From a virus (Duplodnaviria > Caudoviricetes), in the IMG/VR virus record IMGVR_UViG_3300035659_001009, positions 1 through 54,023 of that record: a DNA stretch of 54,023 nucleotides. One strand, given 5' to 3'. This document shows, piece by piece, positions 19,244 through 40,328 of the stretch (its first letter is position 1; each line of letters opens with the position of its first letter). Made by a program: the position numbers and the translations under genes. The notes beneath the pieces were generated by a model. That model was given only the letters and a program-made list of their open reading frames with translations, was not told the origin of the DNA and made no database searches.

Positions 19244-19288
19244 TTGACAATTTATAAAAATTGTTGTATAATTTTTATAAATTGTCAA
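19244..19288. promoter_or_regulatory. consensus sigma70 promoter inside a 45-bp inverted repeat (divergent control region)
   Basis: TTGACA(19244)-17 bp-TATAAT(19267); perfect 19-bp arms with 7-bp spacer. Confidence 0.85.
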
Positions 19289-19303: not shown

Positions 19304-20089
19304 ATGATTACAGGAATGTACGAACCCAACGAAGACGACATTGGCACCCAAGCACCAACAAGAGACGAGGAAGCAGTGGAGATGTATCTCCAAGGGATTC
19401 ATGTTGCAGACATTTGTGTCGAACTCGCCCTGAACCCACCGACTCTCTACCTTATTCTCCGGAGGGCTAGCGTACCAATCGACCGGAGAGGAGCACACCC
19501 CACAGGGTCTTCTCAGGACGCCACGCCCCGTCTGCTGCCAACCCTTGATAGGCCTTTTGGTGTTCATGATCCACGCGCAATTGGTAGACCTCCCAACTTG
19601 GTCACTGAAGAACTCCGCACTTTGATCCTTCACGACTATGAGACCTTTGGATCAGCTCGCAAAGTTGCACATCTCAATGGCCTGACGTACTGGATTGTGT
19701 TGAGGACGCTACGTGAGGAAGGAGTACCACTGTTTATTGGAGCGAAGAAGCAGCCTAGGCCCAGCATTACCGACCTCGCAGGACGGCCCTTGACTACTGA
19801 TGAGGTCTCCAGCATACAGCTAGGAATTGAAGCCGCTGCCGCTGATGACGCCGTATCGCTTGAAGACGTTGCTTTGGAATTTGGGGTAAGTCTGGCCGTC
19901 CTTACGACGATTATCTCGTTGGGCTCCGGGCCCGTTGCGGTGGTGTCAAAGAAGGAGAAGACCAAAGCGGCGCACGCAATGGCGTCGGTCTCCGTGGCTG
20001 ACACAATCACCGCGATTACAAGGGAGGTTGAGGCTAGGGTACGTCGAGATTCTTTGGTTGACTTGCAGCCTCCGCTTCTCGATGTTTGA
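19304..20089 (+). CDS. multi-HTH DNA-binding protein (probable regulator)
   Basis: Three HTH-like segments (VADICVELAL..TLYLIL, ARKVAHLNGL, LEDVALEFGVS); AGGAGG RBS. Confidence 0.65.
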   Translation: MITGMYEPNEDDIGTQAPTRDEEAVEMYLQGIHVADICVELALNPPTLYLILRRASVPIDRRGAHPTGSSQDATPRLLPTLDRPFGVHDPRAIGRPPNLVTEELRTLILHDYETFGSARKVAHLNGLTYWIVLRTLREEGVPLFIGAKKQPRPSITDLAGRPLTTDEVSSIQLGIEAAAADDAVSLEDVALEFGVSLAVLTTIISLGSGPVAVVSKKEKTKAAHAMASVSVADTITAITREVEARVRRDSLVDLQPPLLDV

Positions 20090-20202
20090 TCCTGTTTTGG
20101 GTGAATGCCCCTGAGTGACAGTAAAAATACTGTTACGGTTGTAAACCACGGGATATTGTATTCCGTGCTTTATGACCGCGCCCGTTGACCAGGGAGGCCA
20201 AC

Positions 20203-20406
20203 ATGTCAGGTAACACCAACAACCTAACCCACCTCAGCACCAACGCTTTGGTGGTGGTCCTTGGGATCCTCGATGCTACAACGCATCGATTGATCCAGGG
20301 CGGCCGGGTGAAAGCCGCCGGTGTCCTCTGGGGCATGCGACACGTAGCTTCGACAGAGCTACTGCATCGCACCGGGAAGGCTCTCGACCTGGCCCATAAA
20401 GCATAA
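20203..20406 (+). CDS. hypothetical early protein
   Basis: GGGAGG RBS, MSGNTNN. Confidence 0.5.
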   Translation: MSGNTNNLTHLSTNALVVVLGILDATTHRLIQGGRVKAAGVLWGMRHVASTELLHRTGKALDLAHKA

Positions 20407-20519
20407 GAGCAGATGCTACCTGCGAAGCTCAAGGAGCTGAGGTCGGTGTAATGCTGACTGACATTACTTGAGCTGTATCGGTGTGAAGCCGACAAGGTCA
20501 TCAAGGTATGCAACTGTGT

Positions 20520-20544
20520 AGGATTCTGTAAAGAATCCTTTATT
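20520..20544 (+). terminator. intrinsic terminator-like hairpin
   Basis: AGGATTCT-GTAA-AGAATCCT followed by TTATT. Confidence 0.5.
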
Positions 20545-20592
20545 GGTCCTGTCGGCATGAATGCTATGTAGCGTGAATGCCGACTGAGAGAT
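20545..20592 (+). repeat. 48-nt leader repeat, copy A
   Basis: Ungapped alignment with 21491-21538 and 23265-23312. Confidence 0.75.
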
Positions 20593-20611
20593 CTTGACCA
20601 GGGAGGTCAAC

Positions 20612-20800
20612 ATGACGCCATTCGTCCGAAGGGTGTATCGTGTCATCGATCGAAAGGTCGCTGACGTCCTCAATCGGGGCTCAGCAGCAATCATTACTGA
20701 GCCATTTGGAGATCGGCGGCCTGCAATCACAGCTAAGACTGTGGATCAGGAGTACGTCGACCGAATCAAGAGCCAACTGTGGGCGGAGTGGAGGGCATAA
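20612..20800 (+). CDS. hypothetical early protein
   Basis: GGGAGG RBS, MTPFVRR. Confidence 0.6.
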   Translation: MTPFVRRVYRVIDRKVADVLNRGSAAIITEPFGDRRPAITAKTVDQEYVDRIKSQLWAEWRA

Positions 20801-21021
20801 TGTGGTACTGTGCGTCGTGTGGTAAGGTGATTTGCAGAGGTCACTTCGCAATCAGCGTGCACGGGAAGCTGTTCTGCAGCGACGCGTGCGAAGCCGTGTA
20901 CGAGAGTCGAGATGTCGCCAAGGTCATCGAGGCGAACCTCGACAACGACGGGGGAAGGAGGGTAACATGCCTGAGTTCTGGTGGGAAGACGCGGACGGGG
21001 TTGTCCGCGGAGTCGTCGTAG
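20800..21021 (+). CDS. small zinc-finger protein (CxxC...FCSxxC)
   Basis: MWYCASCGK...LFCSDAC; TAATG coupling. Confidence 0.6.
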   Translation: MWYCASCGKVICRGHFAISVHGKLFCSDACEAVYESRDVAKVIEANLDNDGGRRVTCLSSGGKTRTGLSAESS

Positions 21022-21146
21022 TACGCGATGACCTAACGGCCAAGATGTTCAATGAACCGGGACACGAATACGTGTCAATACGAGTCGTCGACGAAGCTCG
21101 CCTCCACACGGCGATCGTCCGACTCGAGACCCTGGTCGCAATCTAA
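20967..21146 (+). CDS. hypothetical early protein
   Basis: AGGAGG RBS, MPEFWWED. Confidence 0.55.
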   Translation: MPEFWWEDADGVVRGVVVVRDDLTAKMFNEPGHEYVSIRVVDEARLHTAIVRLETLVAI

Positions 21147-21157
21147 GGAGGCTGAAC

Positions 21158-21412
21158 ATGTCAGTCAAAGGAACAATCATGATCGTAGTTGCTGGTGCGA
21201 TGCTCCTCATCGCCAAGGACGCGTGCCAGAGTGGAGGCGGGGGTGGCCCGGACACCTTCAATAGCGATGTCGCAACGGCCGTGCCCCTCATTGGCGCGGC
21301 CCAGGATGTGTACAGTCGCGCCATTGACGGGGCGGCCAGTGCGTATGGCGAGGGGGTCCAGGGCTCCCTGGCACAGCAGGCCTGCGCTGCCGCTCCGGAT
21401 CTTTGCAGGTAG
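21158..21412 (+). CDS. small exported/membrane protein
   Basis: TAAGGAGG RBS; hydrophobic N-terminus followed by ACQSGGGG. Confidence 0.6.
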   Translation: MSVKGTIMIVVAGAMLLIAKDACQSGGGGGPDTFNSDVATAVPLIGAAQDVYSRAIDGAASAYGEGVQGSLAQQACAAAPDLCR

Positions 21413-21490
21413 ACGCTAGTACAATTGAATAGCAGAGCGTAGTAGAGTCTACTAAGTGAGGCTCGAGTCGCTCTGCCAAAGAATTTATTC

Positions 21491-21538
21491 GGTCCTGTCA
21501 GCGGACATGGTCTGTCGTGTGAATACCAACTGAGAGAT
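21491..21538 (+). repeat. 48-nt leader repeat, copy B
   Basis: GGTCCTGTC...GTGAATACCAACTGAGAGAT. Confidence 0.75.
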
Positions 21539-21556
21539 TTCACTAAGGAGACTGAA

Positions 21557-21673
21557 ATGAAGAGGCAGATCGATCTCAAGCGTGCCGGTCGCCGGGCCGG
21601 AAAGACATTCAAGCCCAAGTATAGTGGCGGGACGCGTCGCATTGCACGAACCAAGAAACAGAGAGAAGGCTAG
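21557..21673 (+). CDS. 38-aa highly basic peptide
   Basis: TAAGGAG RBS; MKRQIDLKRAGRRAGKTFKPKYSGGTRRIARTKKQREG. Confidence 0.5.
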   Translation: MKRQIDLKRAGRRAGKTFKPKYSGGTRRIARTKKQREG

Positions 21674-21674
21674 T

Positions 21675-21923
21675 GTGTCGATCTCAGATCTGGGCAAGTT
21701 CCTGGAACTCCACAACGTAATGACCTACGGATTGCGGGGCCGTAGGGTTGCGCTAGAGACAACCCGCGTAGCATGGATTCGTAGAACCGGAACGCGAGTG
21801 ACGATCTACGATTGGACGGCCGCACTCGAAGAGGCCGGCCACGACGACACCAAAGAGGCTCTAATCCTGATGGGAGCCCAGGTGTACGATTCGCAACTTC
21901 AGACCATACCTAAGGAGGCATGA
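21675..21923 (+). CDS. hypothetical early protein
   Basis: GTG start; ends PKEA over next RBS. Confidence 0.5.
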   Translation: MSISDLGKFLELHNVMTYGLRGRRVALETTRVAWIRRTGTRVTIYDWTAALEEAGHDDTKEALILMGAQVYDSQLQTIPKEA

Positions 21924-21924
21924 C

Positions 21925-22179
21925 ATGAGTAAGAGAATCGAATTCGCCAAGATCATTCGGCTTGCCAAAGAACAAACTGGCAAGCACCGACCCTCGACCG
22001 AAGAGATCATCAAACAGCTCCACGAAGGAGGGGCATATAAGCTGATCCACCAAACCGCACTCAACGTGCTCACCAACGACAAAGACCCCATCGCCGACGA
22101 CAACTACGCCCACTACGCGGTCGAGGAGGTGATCGGATTAGCCTGCGTCGAGTATTTAGAGGACAAGCGGACCGCCTAA
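21925..22179 (+). CDS. hypothetical early protein
   Basis: TAAGGAGG RBS. Confidence 0.65.
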   Translation: MSKRIEFAKIIRLAKEQTGKHRPSTEEIIKQLHEGGAYKLIHQTALNVLTNDKDPIADDNYAHYAVEEVIGLACVEYLEDKRTA

Positions 22180-22185
22180 GGAGAC

Positions 22186-22419
22186 ATGATGGCAACAAGA
22201 ATAACACTTCAAGAACTCCACTCGTGGATTCTAGAAGCTCGAGAAATCCTATACGATGAGAAACACGAGGGCGTGACGTCACCAAAAAACCTCGTCCTTA
22301 CAGGCGAATTAGCCGACTCGTTCGTAGACGTTCTCGAAGTACAAGAATCGTTCTGCAAAGTATTAGAGGCAGTCGATAACCTTGACTGCCTCTTCCACGA
22401 CAAGTTCGATTGCCGATAA
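22186..22419 (+). CDS. hypothetical early protein
   Basis: TAAGGAG RBS. Confidence 0.6.
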   Translation: MMATRITLQELHSWILEAREILYDEKHEGVTSPKNLVLTGELADSFVDVLEVQESFCKVLEAVDNLDCLFHDKFDCR

Positions 22420-22430
22420 GGAGGCATGAA

Positions 22431-22850
22431 ATGGCAAACCGATGGTACACGAAGAAGGAAGCAATGGGGAAGTTGGGCCTCGCTCCCAACAACAACACCC
22501 AGCTGATGTCGATCATCCGGTCGCAGGAAGTCGAGTACACGTACATCTTCGACGACGTGCGACACATTCAGCGTCTGATGGTTGACGCGGACGCGATCGA
22601 CGGATACCAGATCCGCCACCGCGACCCGGACGGCGCCCACGAATGGAGCATTCGCATGACCGAGGACGCCCGCGATGCGTTCCTCAAGCTGGCGAACAAG
22701 TTCCACCCCATCGAGGAAGAGCCCACAAGAGCGCTCGCCGAGGTCATCAACGCGATCTACGACGCCGAAGACCTCACGGAGAAGCGTCGCCGCTACAACG
22801 CCAGCCGCAAGGTTGACACTGTCGCGCCCGCCAAGCTCCACGACGCCTAG
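22431..22850 (+). CDS. putative DNA-binding early protein
   Basis: TAAGGAGG RBS; WYTKKEAMGKLGL excisionase-type HTH start; biased codons. Confidence 0.6.
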   Translation: MANRWYTKKEAMGKLGLAPNNNTQLMSIIRSQEVEYTYIFDDVRHIQRLMVDADAIDGYQIRHRDPDGAHEWSIRMTEDARDAFLKLANKFHPIEEEPTRALAEVINAIYDAEDLTEKRRRYNASRKVDTVAPAKLHDA

Positions 22851-22956
22851 AACCTTCCCCACAACCAAATACATTGTAGGAGTGGAACCTACGACGACCT
22901 AAGAGTCATGAATAGGTTCCACTCACGGTTTCGAGCAGACACCTAAGGAGACTAGA

Positions 22957-23172
22957 ATGTCTAGCGTATCAAAGACACAAGGAACGTTTGGTGCAACACT
23001 GTCGGCCGCAGTCCTGCACGACATGGATGACGGCCACAAAGCCGCGATCGTTTACCAGTACCACATCGAGTTCGAGGGTGCACCAGAAGAACTCGCAAAG
23101 GCGATCGCAGCACTACCCATGGTCGAAGAAGTCGCCAAGCTTGAAATAGGAAAGGGCATCGGCGAGAGGTAG
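22957..23172 (+). CDS. hypothetical early protein
   Basis: TAAGGAG RBS. Confidence 0.6.
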   Translation: MSSVSKTQGTFGATLSAAVLHDMDDGHKAAIVYQYHIEFEGAPEELAKAIAALPMVEEVAKLEIGKGIGER

Positions 23173-23264
23173 TCTCTCCACAACTAAATAACAGATAGGA
23201 GTCACCCACTCAGGAATGATGTTGAGTGACTCCTATCGAAGACTGAAGCACAAAGAACCGATTT

Positions 23265-23312
23265 GGTCCTGTCGGCGTTCATGTTAGATAGAGTGATCGC
23301 CGGCAGGTAGAT
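23265..23312 (+). repeat. 48-nt leader repeat, copy C
   Basis: GGTCCTGTCGGC...GTGATCGCCGGCAGGTAGAT. Confidence 0.7.
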
Positions 23313-23332
23313 CTCGATAAGGAAGGTTTGAA

Positions 23333-23506
23333 ATGGCTACGAACACAGTAATGAAAGCCCTTGCAGCACTGCAAGGCAAGTACGAATGGTTCACGCTGAG
23401 CACGGGTGGCCAGTTCACCCCAAATCCACTGACCAAGGAGCAGTGGCTGGCAACAGCGTTTGGCCCCCCCAGGGAACGAAGACGCCATGAGCGACCTGCT
23501 CTGTGA
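23333..23506 (+). CDS. hypothetical 57-aa early protein
   Basis: TAAGGAAGG RBS; MATNTVMKAL. Confidence 0.5.
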   Translation: MATNTVMKALAALQGKYEWFTLSTGGQFTPNPLTKEQWLATAFGPPRERRRHERPAL

Positions 23507-23672
23507 AATTGTCAACTGGACGGTGAAGCATGCCCGCGTCGACGCAATCCTTGCAAACGTGCCGGCCGACTACGAGTGGAGCAGTGACACAGGCGACAAC
23601 CCCACGAAAGCGACGCTCGCGTGGTGGTACCTGTGGGATCAACTCACTGAGTGGACCGAGGAGGCAAAGTGA
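23487..23672 (+). CDS. hypothetical early protein
   Basis: MSDLLCEIV; GTGA overlap with next gene. Confidence 0.5.
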   Translation: MSDLLCEIVNWTVKHARVDAILANVPADYEWSSDTGDNPTKATLAWWYLWDQLTEWTEEAK

Positions 23673-23929
23673 AACTTGTCGCGTACTTCGAGAACGGAAT
23701 GGAGGGCGTCACCCTAACACCCAAACAACTTGAATTGATTCGTAGAGGCGTCGCTTGCCTCTACGAAGATCGTAAGGATGAAGCGGCTCGCATCGACACC
23801 GATCTCCACTTGACGCCACGCGAGCACCTCATCATCAGCAACGAGAACGACGCCGACATCGAAGCAATTGAGCAACTCCGTGAAATCCTATATCAACAGG
23901 AAGTCTACGAAAAGGCTAAGGAGGCCTGA
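23669..23929 (+). CDS. hypothetical early protein
   Basis: GAGGAGG RBS, GTG start; ends AKEA. Confidence 0.6.
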   Translation: MKLVAYFENGMEGVTLTPKQLELIRRGVACLYEDRKDEAARIDTDLHLTPREHLIISNENDADIEAIEQLREILYQQEVYEKAKEA

Positions 23930-23930
23930 C

Positions 23931-24140
23931 ATGAGCAAGTACGTGGACATGGAAGCAGAAGTAAAGAACGCGAGAAGGATTCGACAACTGGCGCAGGTCG
24001 TTGTGGACGCGTGGTCGCATGGCAGGACCGACATGCGATTCCATGAGTCAATGTCGAAGCTCAAAGCAGCACTGGACGCATCCAGAGTTTACGAACGACG
24101 CTGGGGCGGCGTAGTCGCAGAACAGGCTAAGGAGGCCTAA
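23931..24140 (+). CDS. hypothetical early protein
   Basis: TAAGGAGG RBS; ends AKEA. Confidence 0.6.
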   Translation: MSKYVDMEAEVKNARRIRQLAQVVVDAWSHGRTDMRFHESMSKLKAALDASRVYERRWGGVVAEQAKEA

Positions 24141-24141
24141 C

Positions 24142-24354
24142 ATGCGCAAGCAACAACTGTACAAGGACATCATCACGGCGTGCAAAGCGTACAACGCAGA
24201 GACCGACGACGAGGACGACCAGATCGTCCCGATCCACCTCGGTGACATCCCACAAGATGGGATACTAACGGCCTACGGAGAGACCCTCGTCGAGGTGGGC
24301 ATCTTAGACGAGGACACCGACGAGCAGATCGCGCTACGTAGTAGCGCCAACTAA
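24142..24354 (+). CDS. small acidic early protein
   Basis: TAAGGAGG RBS; D/E-rich. Confidence 0.6.
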   Translation: MRKQQLYKDIITACKAYNAETDDEDDQIVPIHLGDIPQDGILTAYGETLVEVGILDEDTDEQIALRSSAN

Positions 24355-24459
24355 CTAAATAGTTCGTAAGTAACAACCGACGGCTCGAGGCGTGTGCAAC
24401 TTCGAGCCGTCTCTGTTACCTACGAGCGTACGTAGGAACTGCGACCTAAGGAGGTCAAG

Positions 24460-24687
24460 ATGGCAACGTTACGTGTCAACACCGAGTTCGTCAGACGACA
24501 GGTATTCGCGTCGCAGCAGTACATACTCTTCATGAGCTACGAAGAGCTTACCCAACTCGCGGCGATAGTCGTCATCGCCACCGAGACCTTTTGGGAATCC
24601 CACGACGGCAACAACGAAGAGCATCGTGTCAAGTTCTTCCAACTCGCAAGTCTAGCAAACGAGTTGGAAGCCGCACTCAAGGCGTAA
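24460..24687 (+). CDS. hypothetical early protein
   Basis: TAAGGAGG RBS. Confidence 0.6.
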   Translation: MATLRVNTEFVRRQVFASQQYILFMSYEELTQLAAIVVIATETFWESHDGNNEEHRVKFFQLASLANELEAALKA

Positions 24688-25139
24688 CAAAGGTTAGTAC
24701 GTAAGGAGACCAAGATGGCTAGAGCACCGCCGCACTAGACGCGTCTAGTAGGATAACTGAATACGTACCCACGGCAGCCGTTGGGATCCGGGCGCAACAG
24801 CCTGAGGCGTGCCGAGCTTGGAAGGAGTACCCAGGCCACCCGTCTGCCTAGTTGCCGGCGAGATCACGGGCCCCCTCCCATCACCCATCTCGGGATGCAC
24901 CGCTTCATGACTAGGGCTCCCCCACCATGTTTACTGGATCGGTGGCTGGTTGCTGTGGCGTTGGCTGGCTGGGGTGGCACACCCCAATCTTCTCAGGGCG
25001 GACAGGGGATCGTGGCGGAGACGAGTATGTTTGGATGGCATTGCGAGGGGGGGGGAGAACATGTTTGCGTAAGCCAGCGAGGGGAGAACGGAAACAATTT
25101 TTCATAGCTTTGTAGGACCCGAAATCATGCACGGGGACA

Positions 25140-25285
25140 CATGAATGTAAAATAACTCATTGTTGTCGATGTTCATTTAAAAAAAGGAGGGGTTAGATGT
25201 AAAGTAAACGACTGGTTTAGGTCTATAGTAGAAGAAATTAAAATAAACATATACAACTATATTATATATATTATACAGTATTTCT
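25140..25285. other. AT-rich non-coding tract (candidate origin or terminus region)
   Basis: Strongly AT-rich (TATATTATATATATTATA) within a ~700-bp gap without a credible ORF. Confidence 0.35.
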
Positions 25286-25368
25286 TGGGAAGGATCCAAT
25301 CAAAAACAAAGGTCCAACGTCACAGAAACGTCAGGGTACCGTCACATAAAAATCCCTTCAAATGCCAC

Positions 25369-25397
25369 TTACGGAAATACAAAAAGTGTTATATAAT
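25369..25397 (+). promoter_or_regulatory. sigma70-like promoter
   Basis: TTACGG-17 bp-TATAAT upstream of the HNH pair. Confidence 0.5.
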
Positions 25398-25431
25398 AAA
25401 ATCATGGCGCACTCATTGCAGGGAGCTAACC

Positions 25432-25935
25432 ATGAAACAAGGTAGACCTACCCCACTTCAGTCAGCGTGGAAGAGAGCCTACTACTGGTACATGTCACTA
25501 CAGACACCAGAAGCAAAGGCAACGCTCGACCGCATCGAAGCCGAGTGCAATGCACTGGGCCTTGAGCTACCTTCGGTAACCGGGAGACACGAGTGTTCTC
25601 CCTCACGGTACAACTATCTAGCCCGTATATACAACATAGAAGGCCAAGTCACGGCTGAGGAGTGGGAGAGTCTCAAAGAACGATACGGCTATCAGTGTCT
25701 TTGCTGCCATACTGGGGACATTGTACTTGTGCCAGACTTCATCATCTCCTGGAGCAACAAGGGAACCAACACCATCGAAAACGTTCAACCACTGTGCCCA
25801 AAGTGCAATAAGCTCAAAGGTCGCCGACAGTATGACTATCGCATCCAATGGCTTACAGAAGAGGTCCGAGACATCGAAGATCGAACCAAGGTCGGGTCGG
25901 AGGCGGACATGGTTCAGCTTGAGTTGGGCCTGTGA
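25432..25935 (+). CDS. HNH-family protein, catalytic His replaced by Phe
   Basis: CLCC...VPDFII...NVQPLCPKCNKLKG. Confidence 0.8.
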   Translation: MKQGRPTPLQSAWKRAYYWYMSLQTPEAKATLDRIEAECNALGLELPSVTGRHECSPSRYNYLARIYNIEGQVTAEEWESLKERYGYQCLCCHTGDIVLVPDFIISWSNKGTNTIENVQPLCPKCNKLKGRRQYDYRIQWLTEEVRDIEDRTKVGSEADMVQLELGL

Positions 25936-25944
25936 GAGATTTCG

Positions 25945-26508
25945 ATGGCACTTAGTGACTTAGAACTAGCATTCAGGGCAGCCCGAAAACTATGGCGTGA
26001 AGACTCCTCCCCTGCGAACAAGGTCGAAATGGACCGTCTCGGGAAAGAACGAAACGCCGTGCGCATCGCAAAACAAAAGGACTCAATGGAAGCCAGTCAC
26101 AAAAGGTGCCAGGAAAGACGGGCAAAACATGAACAGGTGAAAAAGGACCGAGTTTCCACGTACCACGACCGGTGGTTAGAGGCAAGGAAACAAGTCAAAC
26201 AATGGAGAGCTGAGCACCCACGCAAGACTTACATAACCACCCAAGTACGAGCCAACGCAGCACGAAGAGCACGTAAACATGGCACTGAGGGTTCGTACAC
26301 GAACGAAGAATGGCAAACACTACTCGAGAAGTATGACAACAAGTGTATTTGTTGTGGAAAGGGAGACGAAGACCTTACTGCTGACCACGTCATACCTATT
26401 GCCGAAGGGGGAACCGACTTTATCACAAACATCCAGCCACTATGCCAGTCCTGTAACTCACGCAAGGGCACTCATCATACGGACTTTAGAAAGGAGTACC
26501 CAAAATAA
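25945..26508 (+). CDS. HNH endonuclease
   Basis: CICCG...ADHVIPIAEGG...NIQPLCQSCNSRKG. Confidence 0.92.
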   Translation: MALSDLELAFRAARKLWREDSSPANKVEMDRLGKERNAVRIAKQKDSMEASHKRCQERRAKHEQVKKDRVSTYHDRWLEARKQVKQWRAEHPRKTYITTQVRANAARRARKHGTEGSYTNEEWQTLLEKYDNKCICCGKGDEDLTADHVIPIAEGGTDFITNIQPLCQSCNSRKGTHHTDFRKEYPK

Positions 26509-26663
26509 ACAACGCATATGACAAAGATCACCCAAATTTGATGACCTTCAGTACGGTGAATCAAACAACGGTTCCTATATAATCATATCATCAAGCGCGC
26601 GCATCGCACGCGTGCCACAATCACAACAAGGGCTAGACGCCCAAAAGAGAGGATGAAGGTAAC

Positions 26664-27167
26664 ATGGACAAGGTCGATGGAAAGACGCTGTACGACATCA
26701 CGGGAGCTGCGGATTACGTAGACCTGGACACAGGCACGCTTCGCCAGCTCATGGCCAAGTTCGAGATGCAATCGGCCGCACACAAAGCGTTCGCGGCCGG
26801 CCTGGTCCCGAACGACACCCCAATCACCGGCATCAAGTCGGAATGGGCCACGTCGCTGAAGACGGGCAAGCCAGTCCGGGCCTTCCGCCTGGCCGACCTG
26901 GAAGCGTACCTGGTTCGCCCGAAGACGCAGGGTCGCAGTGGCGCGCCGGGCGGGGTCAAGTGGATGAAGGTCCAAGCCACCCCTCAGGCACTGGAAGCAA
27001 TCCGCAACATGGAAGGCGTGAAGGAACTCAAGTCCGCCTTCAACTACGACCCCGTCCGCAACAAGAAGTACCGCATCGAACGCCAGCAGAGGGCCCGCCT
27101 GGCGAAAGCCGCCAAGACCATCGTCGTGCCGAGCGCCGAAGCCGCCGAAGTCTTCGCCGCCAAGTAG
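26664..27167 (+). CDS. basic putative DNA-binding protein, probably highly expressed
   Basis: LYDITGAADYVDL HTH-like start; strong C/G third-position bias. Confidence 0.65.
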   Translation: MDKVDGKTLYDITGAADYVDLDTGTLRQLMAKFEMQSAAHKAFAAGLVPNDTPITGIKSEWATSLKTGKPVRAFRLADLEAYLVRPKTQGRSGAPGGVKWMKVQATPQALEAIRNMEGVKELKSAFNYDPVRNKKYRIERQQRARLAKAAKTIVVPSAEAAEVFAAK

Positions 27168-27330
27168 CCGACCAGTTCGCCGACGCATACACGGCCGGCG
27201 TCACACGAACTACGTCGGCCGTACAATCGAGTGTAAGTGCCAGCAGAGATGCTGGCCTTCACTCTTCACCGCCGAACCATTGGAGTTCGACGATGAAGCG
27301 TGAACAACGAGCACACTAAGGAGGTGCATC

Positions 27331-27558
27331 ATGGACCAGGAGTTGAAGTTAGTAAAGGTCAAAAGCCGCACAGGCAGTCGCGGCGACGTCCACGATACGT
27401 ACTCGCTAGTCGACGTAGTAACCAACACAACCCTCATGACCTTCAAACACTACGTTGAGTATTCGCTGGGAGAAGTTCCAGTATGTTACACCATCAAAGC
27501 GCCAGCGTCGATCGTGTCCGACGACGAGTTTGATGCGGGCGCACTCGCACCGGCTTGA
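27331..27558 (+). CDS. hypothetical protein
   Basis: TAAGGAGG RBS. Confidence 0.65.
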   Translation: MDQELKLVKVKSRTGSRGDVHDTYSLVDVVTNTTLMTFKHYVEYSLGEVPVCYTIKAPASIVSDDEFDAGALAPA

Positions 27559-27589
27559 ACCCCCTAACAACTTGTCTTTAGGTGTTGGC

Positions 27590-28190
27590 TCAGGTAAGGG
27601 CGACGCTTCCAGGCTTCATACAAGTAGGCCGAAGGTGCTCCGGGAATGGAGTAGCTAAGGGAATAGAGCAAATAGCGTCGTCCTTACTTAGAGTAAGGCT
27701 AAAGGCGTCCTGTGAAGTTACATGGGGGTGTGCTCTGCGCATTCGATGGACACGCAGGTCGCCCGCGCCGATCTCTAGTGATCAGTAGGTACGTGGCCGG
27801 GCCTGTTGGAGTAAATGACCTGCAAGTCCACGTTCCTCTTACTGGCGGGAGTCGGGCTCACGAAACGTTTGTGGTTGGTCAGGCCTAGCTAGCCATACGC
27901 CACACAGATACGTAAAGCCGTTGCCCTAGAAGAACTGGTGATCACTAGAGATCGGCGACGACGACGAAGGTCGCTTAGCCTCCTTAGCAACTTAACAGGT
28001 CAGCAATGGTGACAGCCAGGCTGGGTGTTCTAGGCCATAGCAGGCCTGTTAGGTTGACAATGAAGGGAGAACGGGAACGACGGTATCAAGAGTCCAGGCT
28101 AGGGCCGACTCCCTGGCATACAAACAAACCTTTCCCGTTCTCCCTAACAAATAGCAAGTGAGCATTGCCTGAGTTGTGCAGACTCGGGCT
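27590..28190 (+). ncRNA. candidate large structured non-coding RNA (four long-stem modules)
   Basis: Stems 27594-607/27674-687, 27766-784/27939-957, 27988-28001/28043-056, 28064-077/28132-145; G-U pairs favour + strand; no credible ORF. Confidence 0.6.
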
Positions 28191-28217
28191 ATTATACTTT
28201 GACAAAGGAGTGATACC

Positions 28218-28496
28218 ATGTCGAACATAACTGGACAAAGCGCCAAGGAGGTTTTGGCAACGGAGGAGGGTTTCTACGCTCTCCTATCACAATCGACCCG
28301 AGACGAACTCGAGGCTAAGCTCCCCGAGAGCGTCACGCCCCTGCTTCCCGAAGTGCTCAATGCACTTCAGGCACTGGGCGAAGTGGCGGACGCCGAAAAG
28401 TCCGGGGAGACGTTCACCCTCCAAGACTTCGCCCTCTACGTTAGCCTTGCCGAAGACGAAGACGAAGACGACGACGAAGACGAGGGCGGCGAGTAG
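28218..28496 (+). CDS. very acidic small protein
   Basis: AAAGGAG RBS; tail EDEDEDDDEDEGGE. Confidence 0.7.
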   Translation: MSNITGQSAKEVLATEEGFYALLSQSTRDELEAKLPESVTPLLPEVLNALQALGEVADAEKSGETFTLQDFALYVSLAEDEDEDDDEDEGGE

Positions 28497-28616
28497 GCGA
28501 TGTTGGGTCTCTGCCATCGACGTCTGGGCAGGCGTCCGGGTGGTGGGGCCCTTGTCGGTAGCCGGGCGGCTTCTTTGTCTGCCGAGGTCGCCCGGCCATG
28601 CCACTAAGGAGGTAGT

Positions 28617-28745
28617 ATGTCGTACAACAGTAGACGTGTTAGCTGGAGCGCAGCCCACAAACGTGAGTTAGCTCGGAAGCACAAACGCCAAGTCGAGAAG
28701 AAGACCCGGCGACGGAACACCCGGAGTACCTACAACCGCCACTAA
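28617..28745 (+). CDS. 42-aa highly basic peptide
   Basis: TAAGGAGGT RBS; MSYNSRRVSWSAAHKRELARKHKRQVEKKTRRRNTRSTYNRH. Confidence 0.55.
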   Translation: MSYNSRRVSWSAAHKRELARKHKRQVEKKTRRRNTRSTYNRH

Positions 28746-28754
28746 GGAGGTAGC

Positions 28755-29069
28755 ATGGTCAACTGGGAATTTACGCACGAAGACCTTATGGAAGCCGTTT
28801 TGATCATCCAGAAGCACACCTCCATCCTTCCTCAGATCGGGTTCAGCGAGGAAGGCGAACTCCAACTCATCCTCAGGTGTACCAACGAACTCGCCCGCAG
28901 CCCCCTTTGGGTAGAACTCTCAGACGCACGACTTCCAATGCTCCTCGTTCCCGGAGATCCTTACTCTACACTCTACATCGGTGGCAAGCGGCACGACGAG
29001 CCAATCACCACTTGGCCATCTGAAGAGTTCTGTGAGAGGGCCGACCAGCTATACGACAGGAGAGGTTAA
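28755..29069 (+). CDS. hypothetical protein
   Basis: TAAGGAGGT RBS. Confidence 0.65.
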   Translation: MVNWEFTHEDLMEAVLIIQKHTSILPQIGFSEEGELQLILRCTNELARSPLWVELSDARLPMLLVPGDPYSTLYIGGKRHDEPITTWPSEEFCERADQLYDRRG

Positions 29070-29071
29070 CA

Positions 29072-29191
29072 ATGATAGACACACACACAATCGTCGCGTT
29101 CGTTCTGTTTGTTGCCCTAATAGCCTGCGGGTTGTGCGTTCTCGCATACGGGGTCAACGCCCTCGTGTTGCTCCCCATAACCGGAGGGTAA
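29072..29191 (+). CDS. 39-aa single-TM peptide
   Basis: MIDTHTIVAFVLFVALIACGLCVLAYG; AGGAGAGG RBS. Confidence 0.5.
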   Translation: MIDTHTIVAFVLFVALIACGLCVLAYGVNALVLLPITGG

Positions 29192-29192
29192 T

Positions 29193-29318
29193 ATGTTACT
29201 ACAGGGTGGCATCATCACTGGAGCCGAGATCAACCCAACTGACATGATCAGCGGACTCACAGTCGTGCTGATCATCGTCGTAGTCCTCTTCGTTGTAACC
29301 GTTCTCGTTTCGCACTAA
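29193..29318 (+). CDS. 41-aa single-TM peptide
   Basis: GGAGG RBS; LTVVLIIVVVLFVVTVLV. Confidence 0.5.
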   Translation: MLLQGGIITGAEINPTDMISGLTVVLIIVVVLFVVTVLVSH

Positions 29319-29336
29319 AGAAGGTGGGGTACAACT

Positions 29337-29630
29337 ATGACAGACAAGGTCCGAGATATTCTCAACGAGAAGGCAAAGGACTACGACACTCCTGCAGGCC
29401 AAGCTTGGGAGATAGTAGGCCAACTCCTCACTTGGTTCCAAGTACACGGATTACTTGACAAGATCCTACCAAGCGGATGGGGCTTTGTGTGGATCATCAT
29501 CCTCGTCAAGCTAGTCAGACTGAGTCAGAGCCCCAATCACGCCGACAGCTGGCTTGACATTGCTGGGTACGCTACGCTCGTCTCGGACCGCCTCACCAAG
29601 GAACAAGTCAGCCAATGCAATACTATGTAG
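29337..29630 (+). CDS. DUF6378-like protein
   Basis: KLVR...HADSWLDIAGYA signature. Confidence 0.75.
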   Translation: MTDKVRDILNEKAKDYDTPAGQAWEIVGQLLTWFQVHGLLDKILPSGWGFVWIIILVKLVRLSQSPNHADSWLDIAGYATLVSDRLTKEQVSQCNTM

Positions 29631-29839
29631 TTAGCGTCTGTATTACACTAGTCGCGCTATTGTCTGGATACTTCTACGGACGCAGAAGCTGGCTTGGAGC
29701 TGCAGTTGGTTTAGTCGGGAACATTCTCTGGATCGCATACTTCGTATGGATCGGACAGTATCCATTGATTCTATCGACCTGTCCGTTTCTGATCCAAAAC
29801 GTTTGGAACCTTCACGTAATGCGCAAGAAATCGAGATAA
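29615..29839 (+). CDS. 3-TM half-PnuC-like membrane protein
   Basis: YFYGRRSWLG...NILWIAY...QYPLI; paralogue of 42131-42364. Confidence 0.55.
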   Translation: MQYYVVSVCITLVALLSGYFYGRRSWLGAAVGLVGNILWIAYFVWIGQYPLILSTCPFLIQNVWNLHVMRKKSR

Positions 29840-29950
29840 GGCACCCACCTTACCTGGATCAGAGTCAAAAGATCGTCTTGTGAATCACAACAGTGGGGTG
29901 TGCTATGTGCGCTCCGCAAAGGAAGGTGTAACACGATAGCAAACGCTCTT

Positions 29951-30076
29951 ATGCTCCTTGCGATAGCAGCAGGAATCTGGATTTTGGTAGTATCACTTGG
30001 ACCGCTTGCGCCGTTCATACTTATCGGCGGAGCGATCATAGCGCTCATTGCCCTTCTGTTATGGAGGCAGACATGA
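29951..30076 (+). CDS. small 2-TM peptide
   Basis: MLLAIAAGIWILVVSLGPLAPFILIGGAIIALIALLLW; ATGA overlap with next gene. Confidence 0.45.
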   Translation: MLLAIAAGIWILVVSLGPLAPFILIGGAIIALIALLLWRQT

Positions 30077-30822
30077 CAAAGTTGTATGTCGTTGGAAGCA
30101 AAGTAGAGCCACTACTCACGTTCTCGTCTCCACACAATACGGCCTTCTTCCAAGCGTCGTGGTGTCCGCAACCTTTTGCCTCGCTTCCAAAGGTACTCAA
30201 AAGGTGTCGGGTTATCCTCGACGTACAGCACATCTCCGATCACAGTGTTGCCGTTGCAAGTATGGAAGAGGTCGAGACGGCTATCAACGTTCTAAATCCC
30301 AACCTCGTTGTCATCCCCGACGTGCTCATGGACGCCGAAGCAACACTTCAGTCGGCAGTCACCTTCTTCGGAGAGATTCGTAAACTGTTCCCTCATCCAT
30401 CTTTCAACTTCATGTTCGTTCCGCAGGGCAGTACTCTCCCCGAATGGAGACGTTGCCTTTGTGAGTTCTTCGGCTTGCCATTGTGGGGTACTAAACTTGT
30501 AACCACAATTGGTATCCCAAAGATCCTCCACAAGGTCGCAATCAACCAGGGTATCTCCGACTTCCACCGTTTCGAACTCCTTGGCTTCATTCCAAAACCC
30601 CTCAACATACACATGCTTGGGTGTTGGGGTGGTTGGCAAGAAATGGAAGGTCACCAATGTGTCGCGTCCTGGGACACCTCGTTGCCCGTTGCAGCCGCAC
30701 AACGCAACCACTTTATGGCAACGGGAGACGTAAAATGGCAACTCCTCGAAGACGTAGAGGTTGAAGATCCTCGCGTCGTCACATCGAATGCACAGTTCCT
30801 AGCAGAGCGGTTGGGAGGCTAA
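30073..30822 (+). CDS. TGT/DpdA-like transglycosylase (putative DNA 7-deazaguanine insertion enzyme)
   Basis: ILD, VIPDVLMD, FVPQG, IGIP, IHMLG, SWDTS motif order of the TGT-type TIM barrel; que genes in same genome. Confidence 0.6.
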   Translation: MTKLYVVGSKVEPLLTFSSPHNTAFFQASWCPQPFASLPKVLKRCRVILDVQHISDHSVAVASMEEVETAINVLNPNLVVIPDVLMDAEATLQSAVTFFGEIRKLFPHPSFNFMFVPQGSTLPEWRRCLCEFFGLPLWGTKLVTTIGIPKILHKVAINQGISDFHRFELLGFIPKPLNIHMLGCWGGWQEMEGHQCVASWDTSLPVAAAQRNHFMATGDVKWQLLEDVEVEDPRVVTSNAQFLAERLGG

Positions 30823-30823
30823 T

Positions 30824-31039
30824 ATGTGGATCTACATTGATAGCAACTTCGTAACCAAAGTGGCTATTTGGATAATCGTAGTAGCCATAGCAACACTGGT
30901 CGAGAATCTCATTATCAAAGAGGCCGGCGTACAGCTCCCATCAAATCGCACGATACGCATTACGTATCTCCTTGCGGTCAAGGTACCATTTGCGTTCGTT
31001 GCCATACTTGCTGTTGTGCTCTTCTGGAAAGTGGGCTAA
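30824..31039 (+). CDS. small 2-TM membrane protein
   Basis: Two hydrophobic helices; GGGAGG RBS. Confidence 0.55.
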   Translation: MWIYIDSNFVTKVAIWIIVVAIATLVENLIIKEAGVQLPSNRTIRITYLLAVKVPFAFVAILAVVLFWKVG

Positions 31040-35644: not shown

Positions 35645-35729
35645 CGTGTTCAGCCGTGGACCTCGGGATAGGACGAGGCTCCTACGGCTTGCACAAACCA
35701 AACCCAAACGAAAAAAGGAGTAACTGAAC

Positions 35730-39043: not shown

Positions 39044-39814
39044 ATGTCGAAAGCAATGGTTCTATTATCGGGTGGGATCGACTCAGCGACGACCCTCGCT
39101 ATGGCGCTGAGGGCCTGTGACGAGGCTGAGGCCGCGTCGTTCTACTATGGGTCGAAGCACAACAACGTGGAGTCAGACGCAGCTCTGGCTGTCGCAAAGT
39201 ATTATAAGATCAAGAGGCACTACATCGTGTTACCGGACATCTTCGGTGGTGCGGGGAGTGCTTTGATGGGCGAAGTCGAAATGCCTGTCTTGACTTACAA
39301 GGAGATTGACGAGGGCGTTGGCCCCTCGCCGACCGTCGTGCCGTTTCGCAACGCCAACATGCTCTCCATGGCAACAACGCTTGCGATTACCAACAAGTGC
39401 GACTTCGTCTACGCTGGCATGCATGCAGAAGACGCACACCACTGGGCTTACCCAGATTGTAGCCCGGAATTCATCGGTGCGATGGCCAACGCCATCTATG
39501 TGGGCAGCTACCACGAAGTTCGCCTCATAACTCCCATTGAATGGATGATGAAGGCTGATGTTGTGTACTCCGCACTCCACTTGAAGGTGCCGCTAGGTTT
39601 GACCTGGTCGTGTTACGATCCCAAATTACAGACCGAACCCAGTACAATCAAAGGATACCTACCAGTGGCATGTGGCAAATGTCCGACTTGCGTGGAACGA
39701 ATCAACGCCTTCAAGGTGAATGAACTGATCGACCCAATCGTGTACGACATCCCAATCGAGTGGCCAGACTGGTTTTGTCGCTACCCACGGTTTCCAGGTA
39801 GCGAGGAGGTTTGA
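39044..39814 (+). CDS. queC: 7-cyano-7-deazaguanine synthase
   Basis: LLSGGIDS, VPFRN, YPDC, TWSCY, CGKCPTC. Confidence 0.96.
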   Translation: MSKAMVLLSGGIDSATTLAMALRACDEAEAASFYYGSKHNNVESDAALAVAKYYKIKRHYIVLPDIFGGAGSALMGEVEMPVLTYKEIDEGVGPSPTVVPFRNANMLSMATTLAITNKCDFVYAGMHAEDAHHWAYPDCSPEFIGAMANAIYVGSYHEVRLITPIEWMMKADVVYSALHLKVPLGLTWSCYDPKLQTEPSTIKGYLPVACGKCPTCVERINAFKVNELIDPIVYDIPIEWPDWFCRYPRFPGSEEV

Positions 39815-39815
39815 C

Positions 39816-40265: not shown

Positions 40266-40327
40266 TCTGGATTGGCGTTGTTATATTTGTCATTGTACTC
40301 TTTGCAGTGATCTCGGCAGGAGGCTAA
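40259..40327 (+). CDS. 22-aa single-TM peptide
   Basis: MLIWIGVVIFVIVLFAVISAGG; fills gap to next RBS. Confidence 0.35.
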   Translation: MLIWIGVVIFVIVLFAVISAGG

Positions 40328-40328
40328 C

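What the first reader, a model, noticed from the sequence alone, without database searches (positions are those of the whole stretch)
27590..28190. ~600-nt modular structured RNA: four long-stem domains sharing a CCRGGCY...RGGCC core
Seen: no credible ORF, and four consecutive closing stems of 14, 19 (perfect), 14 and 14 (perfect) bp with unrelated sequences. The second is nested in a multibranch closed by 27696-702/27975-981. Each encloses the same core: CCAGGCT..AGGCC (27609/27626), CCGGGCC..AGGCC (27797/27881), CCAGGCT..AGGCC (28016/28032), CCAGGCT.GGGCC (28094/28102), with variable inserts. I do not recognise tRNA, tmRNA, RNase P, SRP or group I/II signatures. Inference: an undescribed phage ncRNA, or an array processed into four related small RNAs (decoys, antitoxin mimics or guides), flanked by a highly expressed basic protein, an acidic protein and basic peptides that could form an RNP.
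Basis: partly seen in the sequence, partly recalled or inferred. Interest (0 to 1): 0.85.

Follow-up and report, generated by a model that had tools for sequence, protein, structure and literature searches.

The report
Orphan structured RNA spacer in phage
A 660-base gene-free stretch in the early operon of an uncultured sediment phage folds into a chain of very stable hairpin-closed domains and carries the exact complement of the ribosome-binding site shared by eight early genes, but no relative or expression data exist to show what it does.

Summary
The structure is real. The spacer 27559-28217 has no coding signal in any of six frames. Its + strand folds at -276 kcal/mol, z -7.4.

The "shared core" is weak. 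A 7-mer seen three times in 641 nt is common. The modules do not align. A covariance model built from module 1 finds no other module.

Nothing matches Rfam, tRNA or tmRNA. No DNA relative exists in any collection searched. The one syntenic relative lacks the element. No RNA run holds it, so transcription is untested.

Two new points. At least five other early spacers hold long hairpins. The RNA carries CCUCCUUAG, the only antisense copy of the ribosome-binding site CUAAGGAGG used by eight early genes.

Best reading (0.4): an expanded, cis-acting intercistronic RNA of the early operon, serving processing, stability or translation control. A trans-acting processed ncRNA array remains possible (0.25).

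The parts
27559..28217 (+). Whole gene-free spacer between the 75-aa gene (27331-27558) and the 92-aa acidic-protein gene (28218-28496)
   Evidence: No coding signal in six frames. Spacer MFE -280 kcal/mol, z -8.4 against mononucleotide shuffles, the most extreme of 19 + strand spacers tested.
27588..27694 (+). Domain M1: 20-pair closing stem (27588-27607/27674-27694, 3 G-U) enclosing a 66-nt interior with a 7-pair hairpin at 27636-27653
   Evidence: z -6.1, 0 of 200 shuffles as good. Stem pair probability 0.86-0.99.
27696..27981 (+). Multibranch domain closed by AGGCUAA/UUAGCCU (27696-27702/27975-27981). It holds hairpin L (27704-27763), domain M2 and a small hairpin at 27962-27973.
   Evidence: Helix probability 0.93. 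Present in both the MFE and centroid structures.
27758..27965 (+). Domain M2: 27-nt inverted repeat with a 19-pair perfect core (27766-27784/27939-27957) around a 154-nt interior
   Evidence: Longest inverted repeat of the window. Core probability 1.0, but interior helices only about 0.18 and interior z +0.33. The 19-mer arm has 0 exact matches in genome contigs and viral contigs.
27979..27987 (+). Anti-RBS word CCUCCUUAG, the exact complement of the early-gene ribosome-binding site CUAAGGAGG
   Evidence: CTAAGGAGG occurs 9 times in the window against 0.32 expected. Eight copies are + strand, each 4-6 nt before an ATG; the ninth is this - strand copy. It is the only CCTCCT on the + strand of 20001-30900. 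Its last 6 nt are 0.62-0.98 unpaired. Duplex energy with the eight sites is -18.1 to -22.6 kcal/mol, against a mean of -7.1 for 500 random windows.
27988..28056 (+). Domain M3: 14-pair closing stem (2 G-U) around a 41-nt interior
   Evidence: z -4.35. Stem probability 1.0.
28064..28145 (+). Domain M4: 14-pair perfect closing stem around a 54-nt interior with a 7-pair hairpin at 28098-28117
   Evidence: z -5.0. Probabilities 0.96-0.97.
28167..28189 (+). Terminal hairpin T: 9-pair stem, 5-nt loop, then a weak T-rich tail, 28 nt before the next start codon
   Evidence: Listed as terminator-like. z -3.2. Probability 0.99.
27609..27630 (+).
   Evidence: Present. Part of the + strand-only AGGCT-N0-12-RGGCC set.
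28016..28036 (+).
28094..28106 (+).
27331..27558 (+). Upstream 75-aa gene with the canonical site CTAAGGAGG at 27316-27324
   Evidence: Coding signal. 47%-identical homologue in L005. In a fold of 27290-28240 its ribosome-binding site pairs with 27981-27987 at about 0.45 and with 27575-27581 at about 0.48.
28218..28496 (+). Downstream 92-aa acidic protein gene (pI 4.05, D/E-rich tail)
   Evidence: No family match.

Best explanation
The stretch is the RNA-level, sense-strand spacer of a polycistronic early transcript. It is a chain of six independently folding, stem-closed domains (M1, L, M2, M3, M4, T). I read it as an expanded version of the long hairpins that sit between many early genes of this phage.

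Proposed mechanism:
- The 14- to 27-pair helices act in cis as double-strand-specific (RNase III-type) processing sites and as 3'-end or 5'-end protecting structures.
- These segment and stabilise the early mRNA. The last hairpin may attenuate read-through into the next gene.
- The single-stranded linker CCUCCUUAG can pair with the shared early ribosome-binding site. Its own upstream gene's site is the nearest target. This would couple the folding or processing state of the spacer to translation.

Shown: non-coding status, the structure, its strand bias, the genome-wide hairpin habit, and the anti-RBS word.

Inferred: transcription, cleavage, and any effect on stability or translation.
For: - Non-coding in all six frames.
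- Fold z -7.4. Closing helices have probability 0.93-1.0.
- The + strand RNA is 49 kcal/mol more stable than the - strand RNA, and its z is more extreme (-7.4 against -4.3). The stems use G-U pairs that would be A-C mismatches on the other strand.
- All neighbouring genes are + strand. There is no room for a promoter between hairpin T and the next start codon.
- Five other + strand spacers are structured at z of -4 or lower against mononucleotide shuffles: 20407-20611, 23173-23332, 24355-24459, 27168-27330 and 35645-35729.
- Those spacers hold single long hairpins placed between a stop codon and the next ribosome-binding site. One example is a 25-pair composite stem at 24362-24427.
- The anti-RBS word is unique and partly unpaired. 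It is predicted to pair with the upstream gene's site at about 0.45 probability in the co-transcript fold.
Against: - No transcript evidence: no RNA run holds the stretch.
- No homologue of the region exists, so no covariation supports any helix.
- 660 nt with six domains is far more than processing or stability needs. The other spacers manage with one or two hairpins.
- Another long spacer, 24688-25284, is not structured at all (z +1.4), so length alone does not bring structure.
- The terminator-like tail is weak.
- RNase III cleavage is inferred only from helix length.
- Folded as single-stranded DNA the stretch is equally exceptional (z -7.2).
Confidence: 0.4

Rival explanations
1. Dedicated trans-acting non-coding RNA(s). 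The spacer would be excised from the early transcript at the long stems into several stable stem-closed RNAs. These would act on other molecules, for example by antisense pairing of CCUCCUUAG to the eight early ribosome-binding sites to shut off early translation. Alternatively they could act as decoys whose AGGCU..AGGCC loops resemble the hairpins around two early sites.
For: - The size and number of domains exceed what cis processing needs.
- The anti-RBS word pairs with all eight early sites at -18.1 to -22.6 kcal/mol and is the only antisense copy in 54 kb.
- AGGCT-N0-12-RGGCC is confined to the + strand. It links modules 1, 3 and 4 to the hairpins at 23913 and 24124 that present the ribosome-binding site in their loop.
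- An arginine-rich 42-aa peptide (pI 12) with the canonical site lies 430 nt downstream.
Against: - No expression, processing or conservation evidence exists.
- The modules are not demonstrably related.
- Any anti-SD-like word pairs with any strong SD, so the specificity is weak.
- Three of the nine anti-RBS bases are held in the multibranch helix.
- The element is absent from the one syntenic relative, L005.
Confidence: 0.25
2. A DNA-level element: inverted repeats that work as double-stranded or extruded DNA. Candidates are an invertible switch bounded by the 27-nt repeat, protein-binding palindromes, or a replication or recombination site.
For: - The two longest stems are perfect Watson-Crick (19 and 14 pairs), so they are equally good as DNA.
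- The single-stranded DNA fold is also exceptional (z -7.2).
- The 27-nt repeat with a 154-nt interior has the geometry of an inverton.
Against: - No direct-repeat iterons or AT-rich unwinding region; GC is 0.53.
- No recombinase, integrase or invertase family turned up among the ORFs scanned, though the record is only about 70% complete.
- Stems 1 and 3 depend on G-U pairs, and the + strand RNA folds much better than the - strand.
- No strand-changing joint was reported in the region in four runs, although cover there was sparse.
Confidence: 0.08
3. Remnant or cryptic coding region: decayed small early genes, or a tightly folded mRNA for the 25-codon partly hydrophobic ORF at 27815-27892 inside M2. 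The latter would resemble a type I toxin mRNA held inactive by end-to-end pairing.
For: - The 25-codon ORF has a GGAG 3 nt upstream and lies inside a 19-pair clamp.
- A homopolymer length variant after 27723 in one run shows that the region tolerates indels.
Against: - No coding signal in any frame.
- The 23 six-frame peptide fragments of 20 or more residues from the region gave no hit below E = 0.02 against 20 related loci.
- The SD spacing of 3 nt and the short hydrophobic run are poor for a membrane toxin (my judgement of the output).
- No antisense partner is evident.
Confidence: 0.07
4. No specific function: a tolerated spacer whose hairpins arose by local inverted duplication and persist neutrally. 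The motif repeats would be chance.
For: - The element is an orphan: nothing like it was found in any collection searched, and it is absent from relative L005.
- The core motif alone is within chance.
Against: - z -7.4 with several independent long helices.
- G-U use biased to the sense strand.
- The same hairpin habit recurs at five other spacers.
- The unique anti-RBS word has an expectation of about 0.002 for this strand and length, my estimate from the 0.32 per window.
Confidence: 0.1

Closest known systems
RNase III processing hairpins between early genes of coliphage T7/T3 (recalled from established knowledge; no paper read here)
   Same: Long, mostly regular hairpins placed between cistrons of a polycistronic early phage transcript, on the sense strand and without a strong U-tract. 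After cleavage they stay on the mRNA ends. This phage shows the same placement in at least six spacers.
   Different: T7 sites are single hairpins of about 50-60 nt and resemble one another. Here six domains with large interiors are concatenated over 660 nt with no gene between them, and they share no alignable sequence. Cleavage is untested.
P1/P7 C4 and P4 CI antisense RNAs (Rfam C4 family; mechanism recalled, no paper read here)
   Same: They work like the trans/cis model proposed here. Each is a small RNA cut out of the phage's own early transcript, and it pairs through a short word with complementary sites on the same operon, including a ribosome-binding site.
   Different: No match to any Rfam family, C4 included, at E up to 10. 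The element here is about ten times larger. Its complementary word is a generic anti-SD rather than a private sequence.
Large ornate phage-associated RNAs GOLLD and ROOL (PMC12286853; only the search listing and the start of the abstract were seen)
   Same: Several-hundred-nucleotide, multi-domain non-coding RNAs. Their occurrence in phage or prophage DNA is recalled, not read in that listing.
   Different: No Rfam match and no family of homologues. Much of the stability here comes from simple long closing stems, and the largest interior is unstructured.
Processing stalks of rRNA operons (recalled)
   Same: The mature part is enclosed by a long helix formed from the flanking sequences and is released by cleavage in that helix. 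This is the same topology as M1-M4.
   Different: The enclosed parts here are 41-154 nt of unknown function, with no conservation.

Membership tests
Any Rfam 15 family (including ROOL, GOLLD, OLE, HEARO, group I/II introns, small ribozymes, C4 antisense RNA, Y RNA, riboswitches) | Covariance-model score at or above the family's gathering score | tested here: not met
   0 matches over the whole window at gathering thresholds. Over 27400-28350 at E up to 10 there were only 4 hits of 10.6-16.3 bits, against gathering scores of 39-70.
tRNA / tmRNA | Cloverleaf or tmRNA architecture detectable by ARAGORN | tested here: not met
   0 genes in the window.
Conserved structured ncRNA class (in the comparative-genomics sense) | Homologues in other genomes whose helices are kept by compensatory changes | tested here: inconclusive
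   No homologue of the region was found. Four other sediment runs hold only the identical sequence. Relatives at 57-86% protein identity exist only on contigs of 1.1-2.3 kb. L004 was fetched and ends inside the 167-aa gene homologue, short of the region; the others could not be fetched.
Conserved structured ncRNA class | Transcribed as RNA | not testable with these tools
   No listed run holding the stretch is on record as RNA.
T7-type intercistronic RNase III sites | Sense-strand hairpin of about two helical turns between cistrons of one transcript | tested here: met
   Stems of 20, 19(+), 14 and 14 pairs on the + strand between + strand genes. Similar hairpins lie in five other spacers.
T7-type intercistronic RNase III sites | Cleavage by host RNase III at the hairpin | not testable with these tools
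   The host is unknown and no RNA-end data exist.
   The 10 pairwise local alignments among the four modules and the linker gave p = 0.17-0.87. MAFFT misaligns the cores. Model R1 of M1 scores 133.5 bits on itself and hits no other module at E up to 10.
Miniature inverted-repeat or palindromic repeat elements (MITE, REP/Correia-like) | Many copies in host, phage or metagenome DNA | tested here: not met
   The own record has only the one copy. The 19-mer arm of M2 has 0 exact matches in 185,579 species genomes and in 2.9 million viral contigs. Summed contig depth over 27562-27931 stays at or below about 2 in four runs at 80% likeness. Only M2's arm was scanned.
Type I toxin-antitoxin mRNA | Small hydrophobic ORF with a usable start site plus an antisense RNA partner | tested here: inconclusive
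   One 25-codon ORF at 27815 with GGAG 3 nt upstream. No coding signal. No antisense partner was sought beyond the self-match.
Replication origin | Direct-repeat iterons next to an AT-rich unwinding region | tested here: not met
   Direct repeats in the region are short two-copy families, and GC is 0.53. By contrast, the non-coding gap of relative L005 has (TA)n and repeated words.

The most novel reading that the evidence does not exclude
The spacer is a phage regulatory RNA of a new type. It would be cut out of the early operon at its long clamps. It would use a 16S-tail-like anti-RBS (CCUCCUUAG) to switch off, as one regulon, the eight early genes that share the identical ribosome-binding site CUAAGGAGG. 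Its AGGCU..AGGCC loops would mimic the hairpins that present that site at two of those genes. This would be an RNA counterpart of the protein-based shut-off of early translation known from T4 (RegB/RegA; recalled).
Probability: 0.12. Interest if true: 0.75.

Novelty: new variant of a known kind. Interest (0 to 1): 0.4.

Why it matters
If the cis reading holds, the stretch is an unusually elaborate example of a familiar phage strategy: hairpins that segment and stabilise early mRNA. It would come from a lineage with no cultured relatives; the best GenBank phage match of its helicase is 27.6% identical.

If the anti-RBS word is functional, a phage could time a whole set of early genes through one shared ribosome-binding site and one antisense word. 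That would be a compact, testable mechanism for the early-to-middle switch.

Either way the case is a caution. Extreme folding scores and repeated short motifs in an orphan sequence cannot establish an RNA class on their own without homologues or transcripts.

Tried and rejected
KNOWN RNA FAMILIES
- Rfam at gathering and at permissive thresholds, and ARAGORN: nothing.

DNA SIMILARITY OF THE REGION
- GenBank phages and plasmids: none.
- Own record: only itself and its own inverted repeat.

SEARCH FOR RELATIVES
- The 167-aa neighbour and the SNF2 helicase as single queries in viral contigs: no relative.
- tblastn of the 167-aa and 92-aa proteins against phages: none.
- The 167-aa protein has only two homologues among the 146 word-sharing candidates scored from the 5.8-billion-protein collection, on contigs of 2 kb or less.
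- Its alignment in metagenome contigs gave one 1092-nt locus that ends inside the gene, before the region.
- The same alignment in genome contigs: none.
- The helicase alignment gave 19 viral loci. Only L005 is syntenic. Its non-coding gap is AT-rich and repeat-bearing, and unrelated.
- The L009 gap turned out to hold small genes.
- Six-frame peptides of the region against the loci: noise only.
- The exact 19-mer of M2: 0 matches in two collections.

SEQUENCING RUNS
- Eight sediment DNA runs were listed; no RNA holder was listed.
- Four runs were laid. The pieces covering the region are identical to the window, apart from one homopolymer insertion.
- No run covered 27858-27931, so there was no variation to test.

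MODULE RELATEDNESS
- Local alignments, MAFFT and a covariance model all failed to link the modules.

WEAK LEADS DROPPED
- The 9-nt direct repeat CCCTAACAA at 27562 and 28142 as a target-site duplication. My estimate is about 0.8 such repeats expected in 641 nt, and there are no terminal inverted repeats.
- CATACAA, shared and unpaired in M1 and M4, is common in the window: 16 copies.
- Intron reading. Both flanking genes are complete with their own starts, and the 75-aa gene's homologue in L005 is free-standing.

PROTEIN NEIGHBOURS
- Structure of the 167-aa protein: pLDDT 46, so it was not searched further.

LITERATURE
- One search listed nothing describing such an element. One search is not a basis for a claim that it is not in print.

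TOOLS AND FILES NOT AVAILABLE
- The look-up of encoding contigs was announced as closed and was not called.
- No supplementary files were consulted.
Full report
CONTEXT

The window is one IMG/VR virus record of 54,023 bases, estimated about 70% complete. It is found in sediment metagenomes.

It is a tailed phage with no close known relative. Its SNF2 helicase is at most 27.6% identical to any GenBank phage protein.

Genes run on the minus strand up to about 20 kb, and on the minus strand again from about 45 kb. The left block includes a large terminase with a LAGLIDADG insertion. From about 20.2 to 44.7 kb the genes are on the + strand:
- many small early genes;
- two HNH endonucleases;
- then an SNF2 helicase, a PD-(D/E)XK nuclease, a primase-like protein, QueC/QueD/QueE/FolE, and a family A polymerase fused to a UDG domain.

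The finding lies in the early block, between a 75-aa gene (27331-27558) and a 92-aa acidic-protein gene (28218-28496).

Yes, for the structure.
- The spacer 27559-28217 has no positive coding score in any of six frames, while both flanking genes and the 167-aa gene upstream score clearly.
- The real early genes carry the site CTAAGGAGG 4-6 nt before ATG. The spacer has no + strand copy of it.
- The only + strand ORF of 10 or more codons with any SD-like word nearby is 25 codons at 27815, with GGAG 3 nt upstream.
- The + strand RNA of 27560-28200 folds at -276 kcal/mol, against -220 +/- 7.6 for 20 dinucleotide shuffles (z -7.4, none as good).
  - stem 1 has 14 pairs as DNA and 20 as RNA, with three G-U;
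  - stem 2 has 19 perfect pairs inside a 27-nt repeat, the longest inverted repeat of the whole window;
  - the multibranch helix is 27696-27702/27975-27981;
  - stem 3 has 14 pairs with two G-U;
  - stem 4 has 14 perfect pairs.
- Their pair probabilities are 0.93-1.0.
- Two perfect stems of 12 or more pairs are present, whereas only 3 of 60 Markov simulations had even one.
- Folded alone, M1, M3 and M4 have z of -6.1, -4.4 and -5.0.
- The 154-nt interior of M2 is no better than shuffles (z +0.33; 120 of 200 shuffles as good), and its helices have probability of only about 0.18.
- A sixth element follows: a 9-pair hairpin at 28167-28189 with a weak T-rich tail, 28 nt before the next start codon.

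THE 'SHARED CORE' IS WEAK

- CCAGGCT occurs three times in the region, out of five on the + strand.
- A 7-mer seen three times in 641 nt turned up in 21.5% of 5000 simulations and in 49 of 167 real windows.
- Local alignments between the four modules and the linker are not better than shuffles (p 0.17-0.87 over 10 pairs).
- MAFFT does not bring the cores into register.
- A covariance model built from M1 scores 133.5 bits on itself. It also scores 16.8 bits on its own reverse complement and 9.4 bits (E 8.5) on a short hairpin in L008.
- It reports nothing for M2, M3 or M4.
- The M2 'core' is two short words 77 nt apart.
- One composite does stand out. AGGCT-N0-12-RGGCC occurs six times on the + strand and never on the - strand (0.85 expected, maximum 4 in 100 simulations).
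  - Three copies are in M1, M3 and M4.
  - Two are the small hairpins AGGCUAAGGAGGCC(U) that present the ribosome-binding site of the genes starting at 23931 and 24142.
  - One is inside queC.
- This motif was defined after looking at the data. I treat it as a lead.

WHICH STRAND, AND RNA OR DNA?

- The - strand RNA folds at -227 kcal/mol (z -4.3). That is 49 kcal/mol weaker than the + strand.
- 23 G-U occur among the 172 pairs of the 24 + strand helices of 4 or more pairs, and stems 1 and 3 depend on them.
- This favours an RNA read in the sense of the flanking genes.
- It is not proof. The two longest stems are perfect Watson-Crick, and the single-stranded DNA fold is equally exceptional (z -7.2).

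IS IT KNOWN?

- No tRNA or tmRNA.
- No Rfam family at gathering thresholds over the window.
- Only four noise hits at E up to 10 over the region.
- No DNA similarity in GenBank phages or plasmids.

IS IT CONSERVED?

This could not be tested.
- Single-protein scans of IMG/VR found no close relative.
- The 167-aa neighbour has two homologues (76% and 57%) on contigs of 2 kb or less. The one locus I could fetch ends inside that gene.
- Four other sediment runs hold pieces identical to the window, plus one homopolymer insertion after 27723.
- No run covers 27858-27931.
- An alignment of helicase homologues reached 19 viral loci.
- Only L005 (44% helicase identity) shares the neighbourhood, with homologues of the 75-, 167-, 97-, 253- and 145-aa proteins.
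- L005 has no such element. Its one long non-coding gap is 34% GC, with (TA)n and repeated words, more like an origin or control region.
- A gap in L009 holds small genes.
- Six-frame fragments of the region find nothing in the loci.
- The 19-mer arm of M2 has no exact match in 185,579 species genomes or in IMG/VR. Together with the low summed depth in the laid runs, this argues against a multi-copy palindromic mobile element.

First, long hairpins are a habit of this operon.
- Of 19 + strand spacers of 40 nt or more, six have z of -4 or lower against mononucleotide shuffles:
  - the focal spacer, 27559-28217 (z -8.4, the most extreme);
  - 20407-20611;
  - 23173-23332;
  - 24355-24459;
  - 27168-27330;
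  - 35645-35729.
- 28497-28616 also holds a 13-pair hairpin.
- These spacers hold one or two long hairpins between a stop codon and the next ribosome-binding site, for example a 25-pair composite stem at 24362-24427.
- The other very long spacer, 24688-25284, is not structured (z +1.4).

Second, the RNA carries an anti-RBS word.
- CTAAGGAGG occurs nine times in the window (0.32 expected).
- Eight copies are + strand sites 4-6 nt before the ATG of early genes between 21.1 and 28.8 kb.
- The ninth is on the - strand at 27979-27987, so the + strand RNA reads CCUCCUUAG.
- No start codon follows it on the - strand (my reading).
- It is the only CCTCCT on the + strand between 20.0 and 30.9 kb.
- Its first three bases belong to the multibranch helix. 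The last six are 0.62-0.98 unpaired and form the linker to M3.
- Predicted duplexes with the eight sites are -18.1 to -22.6 kcal/mol. The mean for 500 random windows is -7.1, and 6% of them reach -14 or below.
- In a fold of 27290-28240, the site of the upstream 75-aa gene pairs with this word at about 0.45, or with UCUUUAG at 27575-27581 at about 0.48.
- Any anti-SD word pairs with any strong SD, so this shows capacity, not function.

MOST LIKELY MECHANISM (0.4)

The spacer is co-transcribed with the early genes. It acts in cis as an expanded set of the hairpins that punctuate this operon:
- double-strand-specific processing sites;
- end-protecting structures;
- a possibly attenuating last hairpin;
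- the anti-RBS linker, which ties the spacer's folding or processing state to translation of neighbouring early genes.

Shown: non-coding status, structure, strand bias, the genome-wide habit and the anti-RBS word.

Inferred: transcription, cleavage and any regulatory effect.

The main weakness is scale. Six domains over 660 nt is far more than the other spacers use.

RIVALS

- Dedicated trans-acting RNA(s) excised from the operon, acting as an antisense shut-off of the CUAAGGAGG genes or as decoys (0.25).
- A DNA-level element such as an invertible segment bounded by the 27-nt repeat (0.08). No recombinase family was found among the ORFs scanned, but the record is incomplete.
- Decayed genes, or a clamped mRNA for the 25-codon ORF at 27815 (0.07).
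- A functionless spacer (0.1).

NEIGHBOURING PROTEINS

- The 167-aa protein is basic (pI 9.8), the 92-aa protein acidic (pI 4.05), and a 42-aa peptide with the canonical site is arginine-rich (pI 12).
- None matches Pfam or an informative PHROG.
- The model of the 167-aa protein was too poor to use.
- Nothing supports 'highly expressed' or an RNP.

COMPARISON WITH KNOWN SYSTEMS

- It works most like the RNase III hairpins between T7 early genes.
- In the bolder reading it works like the P1 C4 and P4 CI RNAs, which are cut from the early transcript and pair with short words on the same operon. Both comparisons are recalled, not read here.
- It is a member of neither. No Rfam match exists, and cleavage is untested.
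- It is not GOLLD, ROOL, OLE or HEARO.

VERDICT

This is a real, strongly structured, sense-biased non-coding spacer in an orphan phage. The claim of four related modules is not supported. Function is unproven for lack of homologues and transcripts. The unique anti-RBS word gives a concrete, testable hypothesis. Interest 0.4.

Noticed in passing
window 19244-19288: A perfect 19-nt inverted repeat with a 7-nt gap. It begins with TTGACA and ends with its complement, and sits at the junction between the minus-strand block and the + strand early block. It looks like a palindromic operator over divergent promoter boxes.
   Followed up: no
window 20100-20620: A second strongly structured stretch (z -6.1). 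It holds two copies of TTGACCAGGGAGGYCAACATG at 20185 and 20594, each a 6-pair hairpin that presents the SD in its loop just before a small ORF.
   Followed up: partly
window 21143-28750: Eight early genes share the extended ribosome-binding site CTAAGGAGG (9 copies in the window against 0.32 expected). Several copies are flanked by short complementary arms, so that the SD sits in a hairpin loop.
   Followed up: yes
window 28617-28745: A 42-aa arginine/lysine-rich peptide (pI 12, 15 K+R) with the canonical early ribosome-binding site. It matches no family. Its composition recalls arginine-rich RNA-binding peptides (recalled), but this was not tested.
   Followed up: partly
window 39044-42134 and 30061-30822: QueC, a 6-pyruvoyl-tetrahydropterin synthase (QueD-like), a radical-SAM protein and GTP cyclohydrolase I lie together. 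This suggests a 7-deazaguanine pathway. A 253-aa protein with no Pfam or PHROG match is conserved in relatives L005 and L007; whether it is the transglycosylase was not tested.
   Followed up: no
window 15595-17904 (-) and 42342-44684 (+): The large terminase carries a LAGLIDADG-like insertion. The family A DNA polymerase carries an N-terminal uracil-DNA-glycosylase-superfamily domain.
   Followed up: no
window 24688-25284: A 597-nt spacer without a convincing ORF that is not structured (z +1.4). Its right end is AT-rich with two promoter-like matches (25238, 25244), just upstream of two tandem HNH endonuclease genes.
   Followed up: no
window 1757-3879 (-) and other ORFs of the minus-strand left block or + strand early block (coordinates not resolved): There are several glycosyltransferase genes. 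Two are of GT1/GT4 type. At least three more of the 33 ORFs scanned match family 2 (that call does not say which ORFs).
   Followed up: no
L005 4207-4930: The syntenic relative has a 34% GC non-coding gap with a (TA)n run and repeated words such as GTTACGATTC and a 25-nt AGCGAAAAAACCAC...-type unit. It is origin-like or control-region-like, and unrelated to the finding.
   Followed up: partly
window 26957-27239 (run X3) and 27723 (run X6): One contig of a divergent relative (15 differences in 94 nt) joins 27050 to 27239, skipping 188 nt across the end of the 167-aa gene. Another run has an extra G in the G-run after 27723, inside the non-coding region.
   Followed up: no
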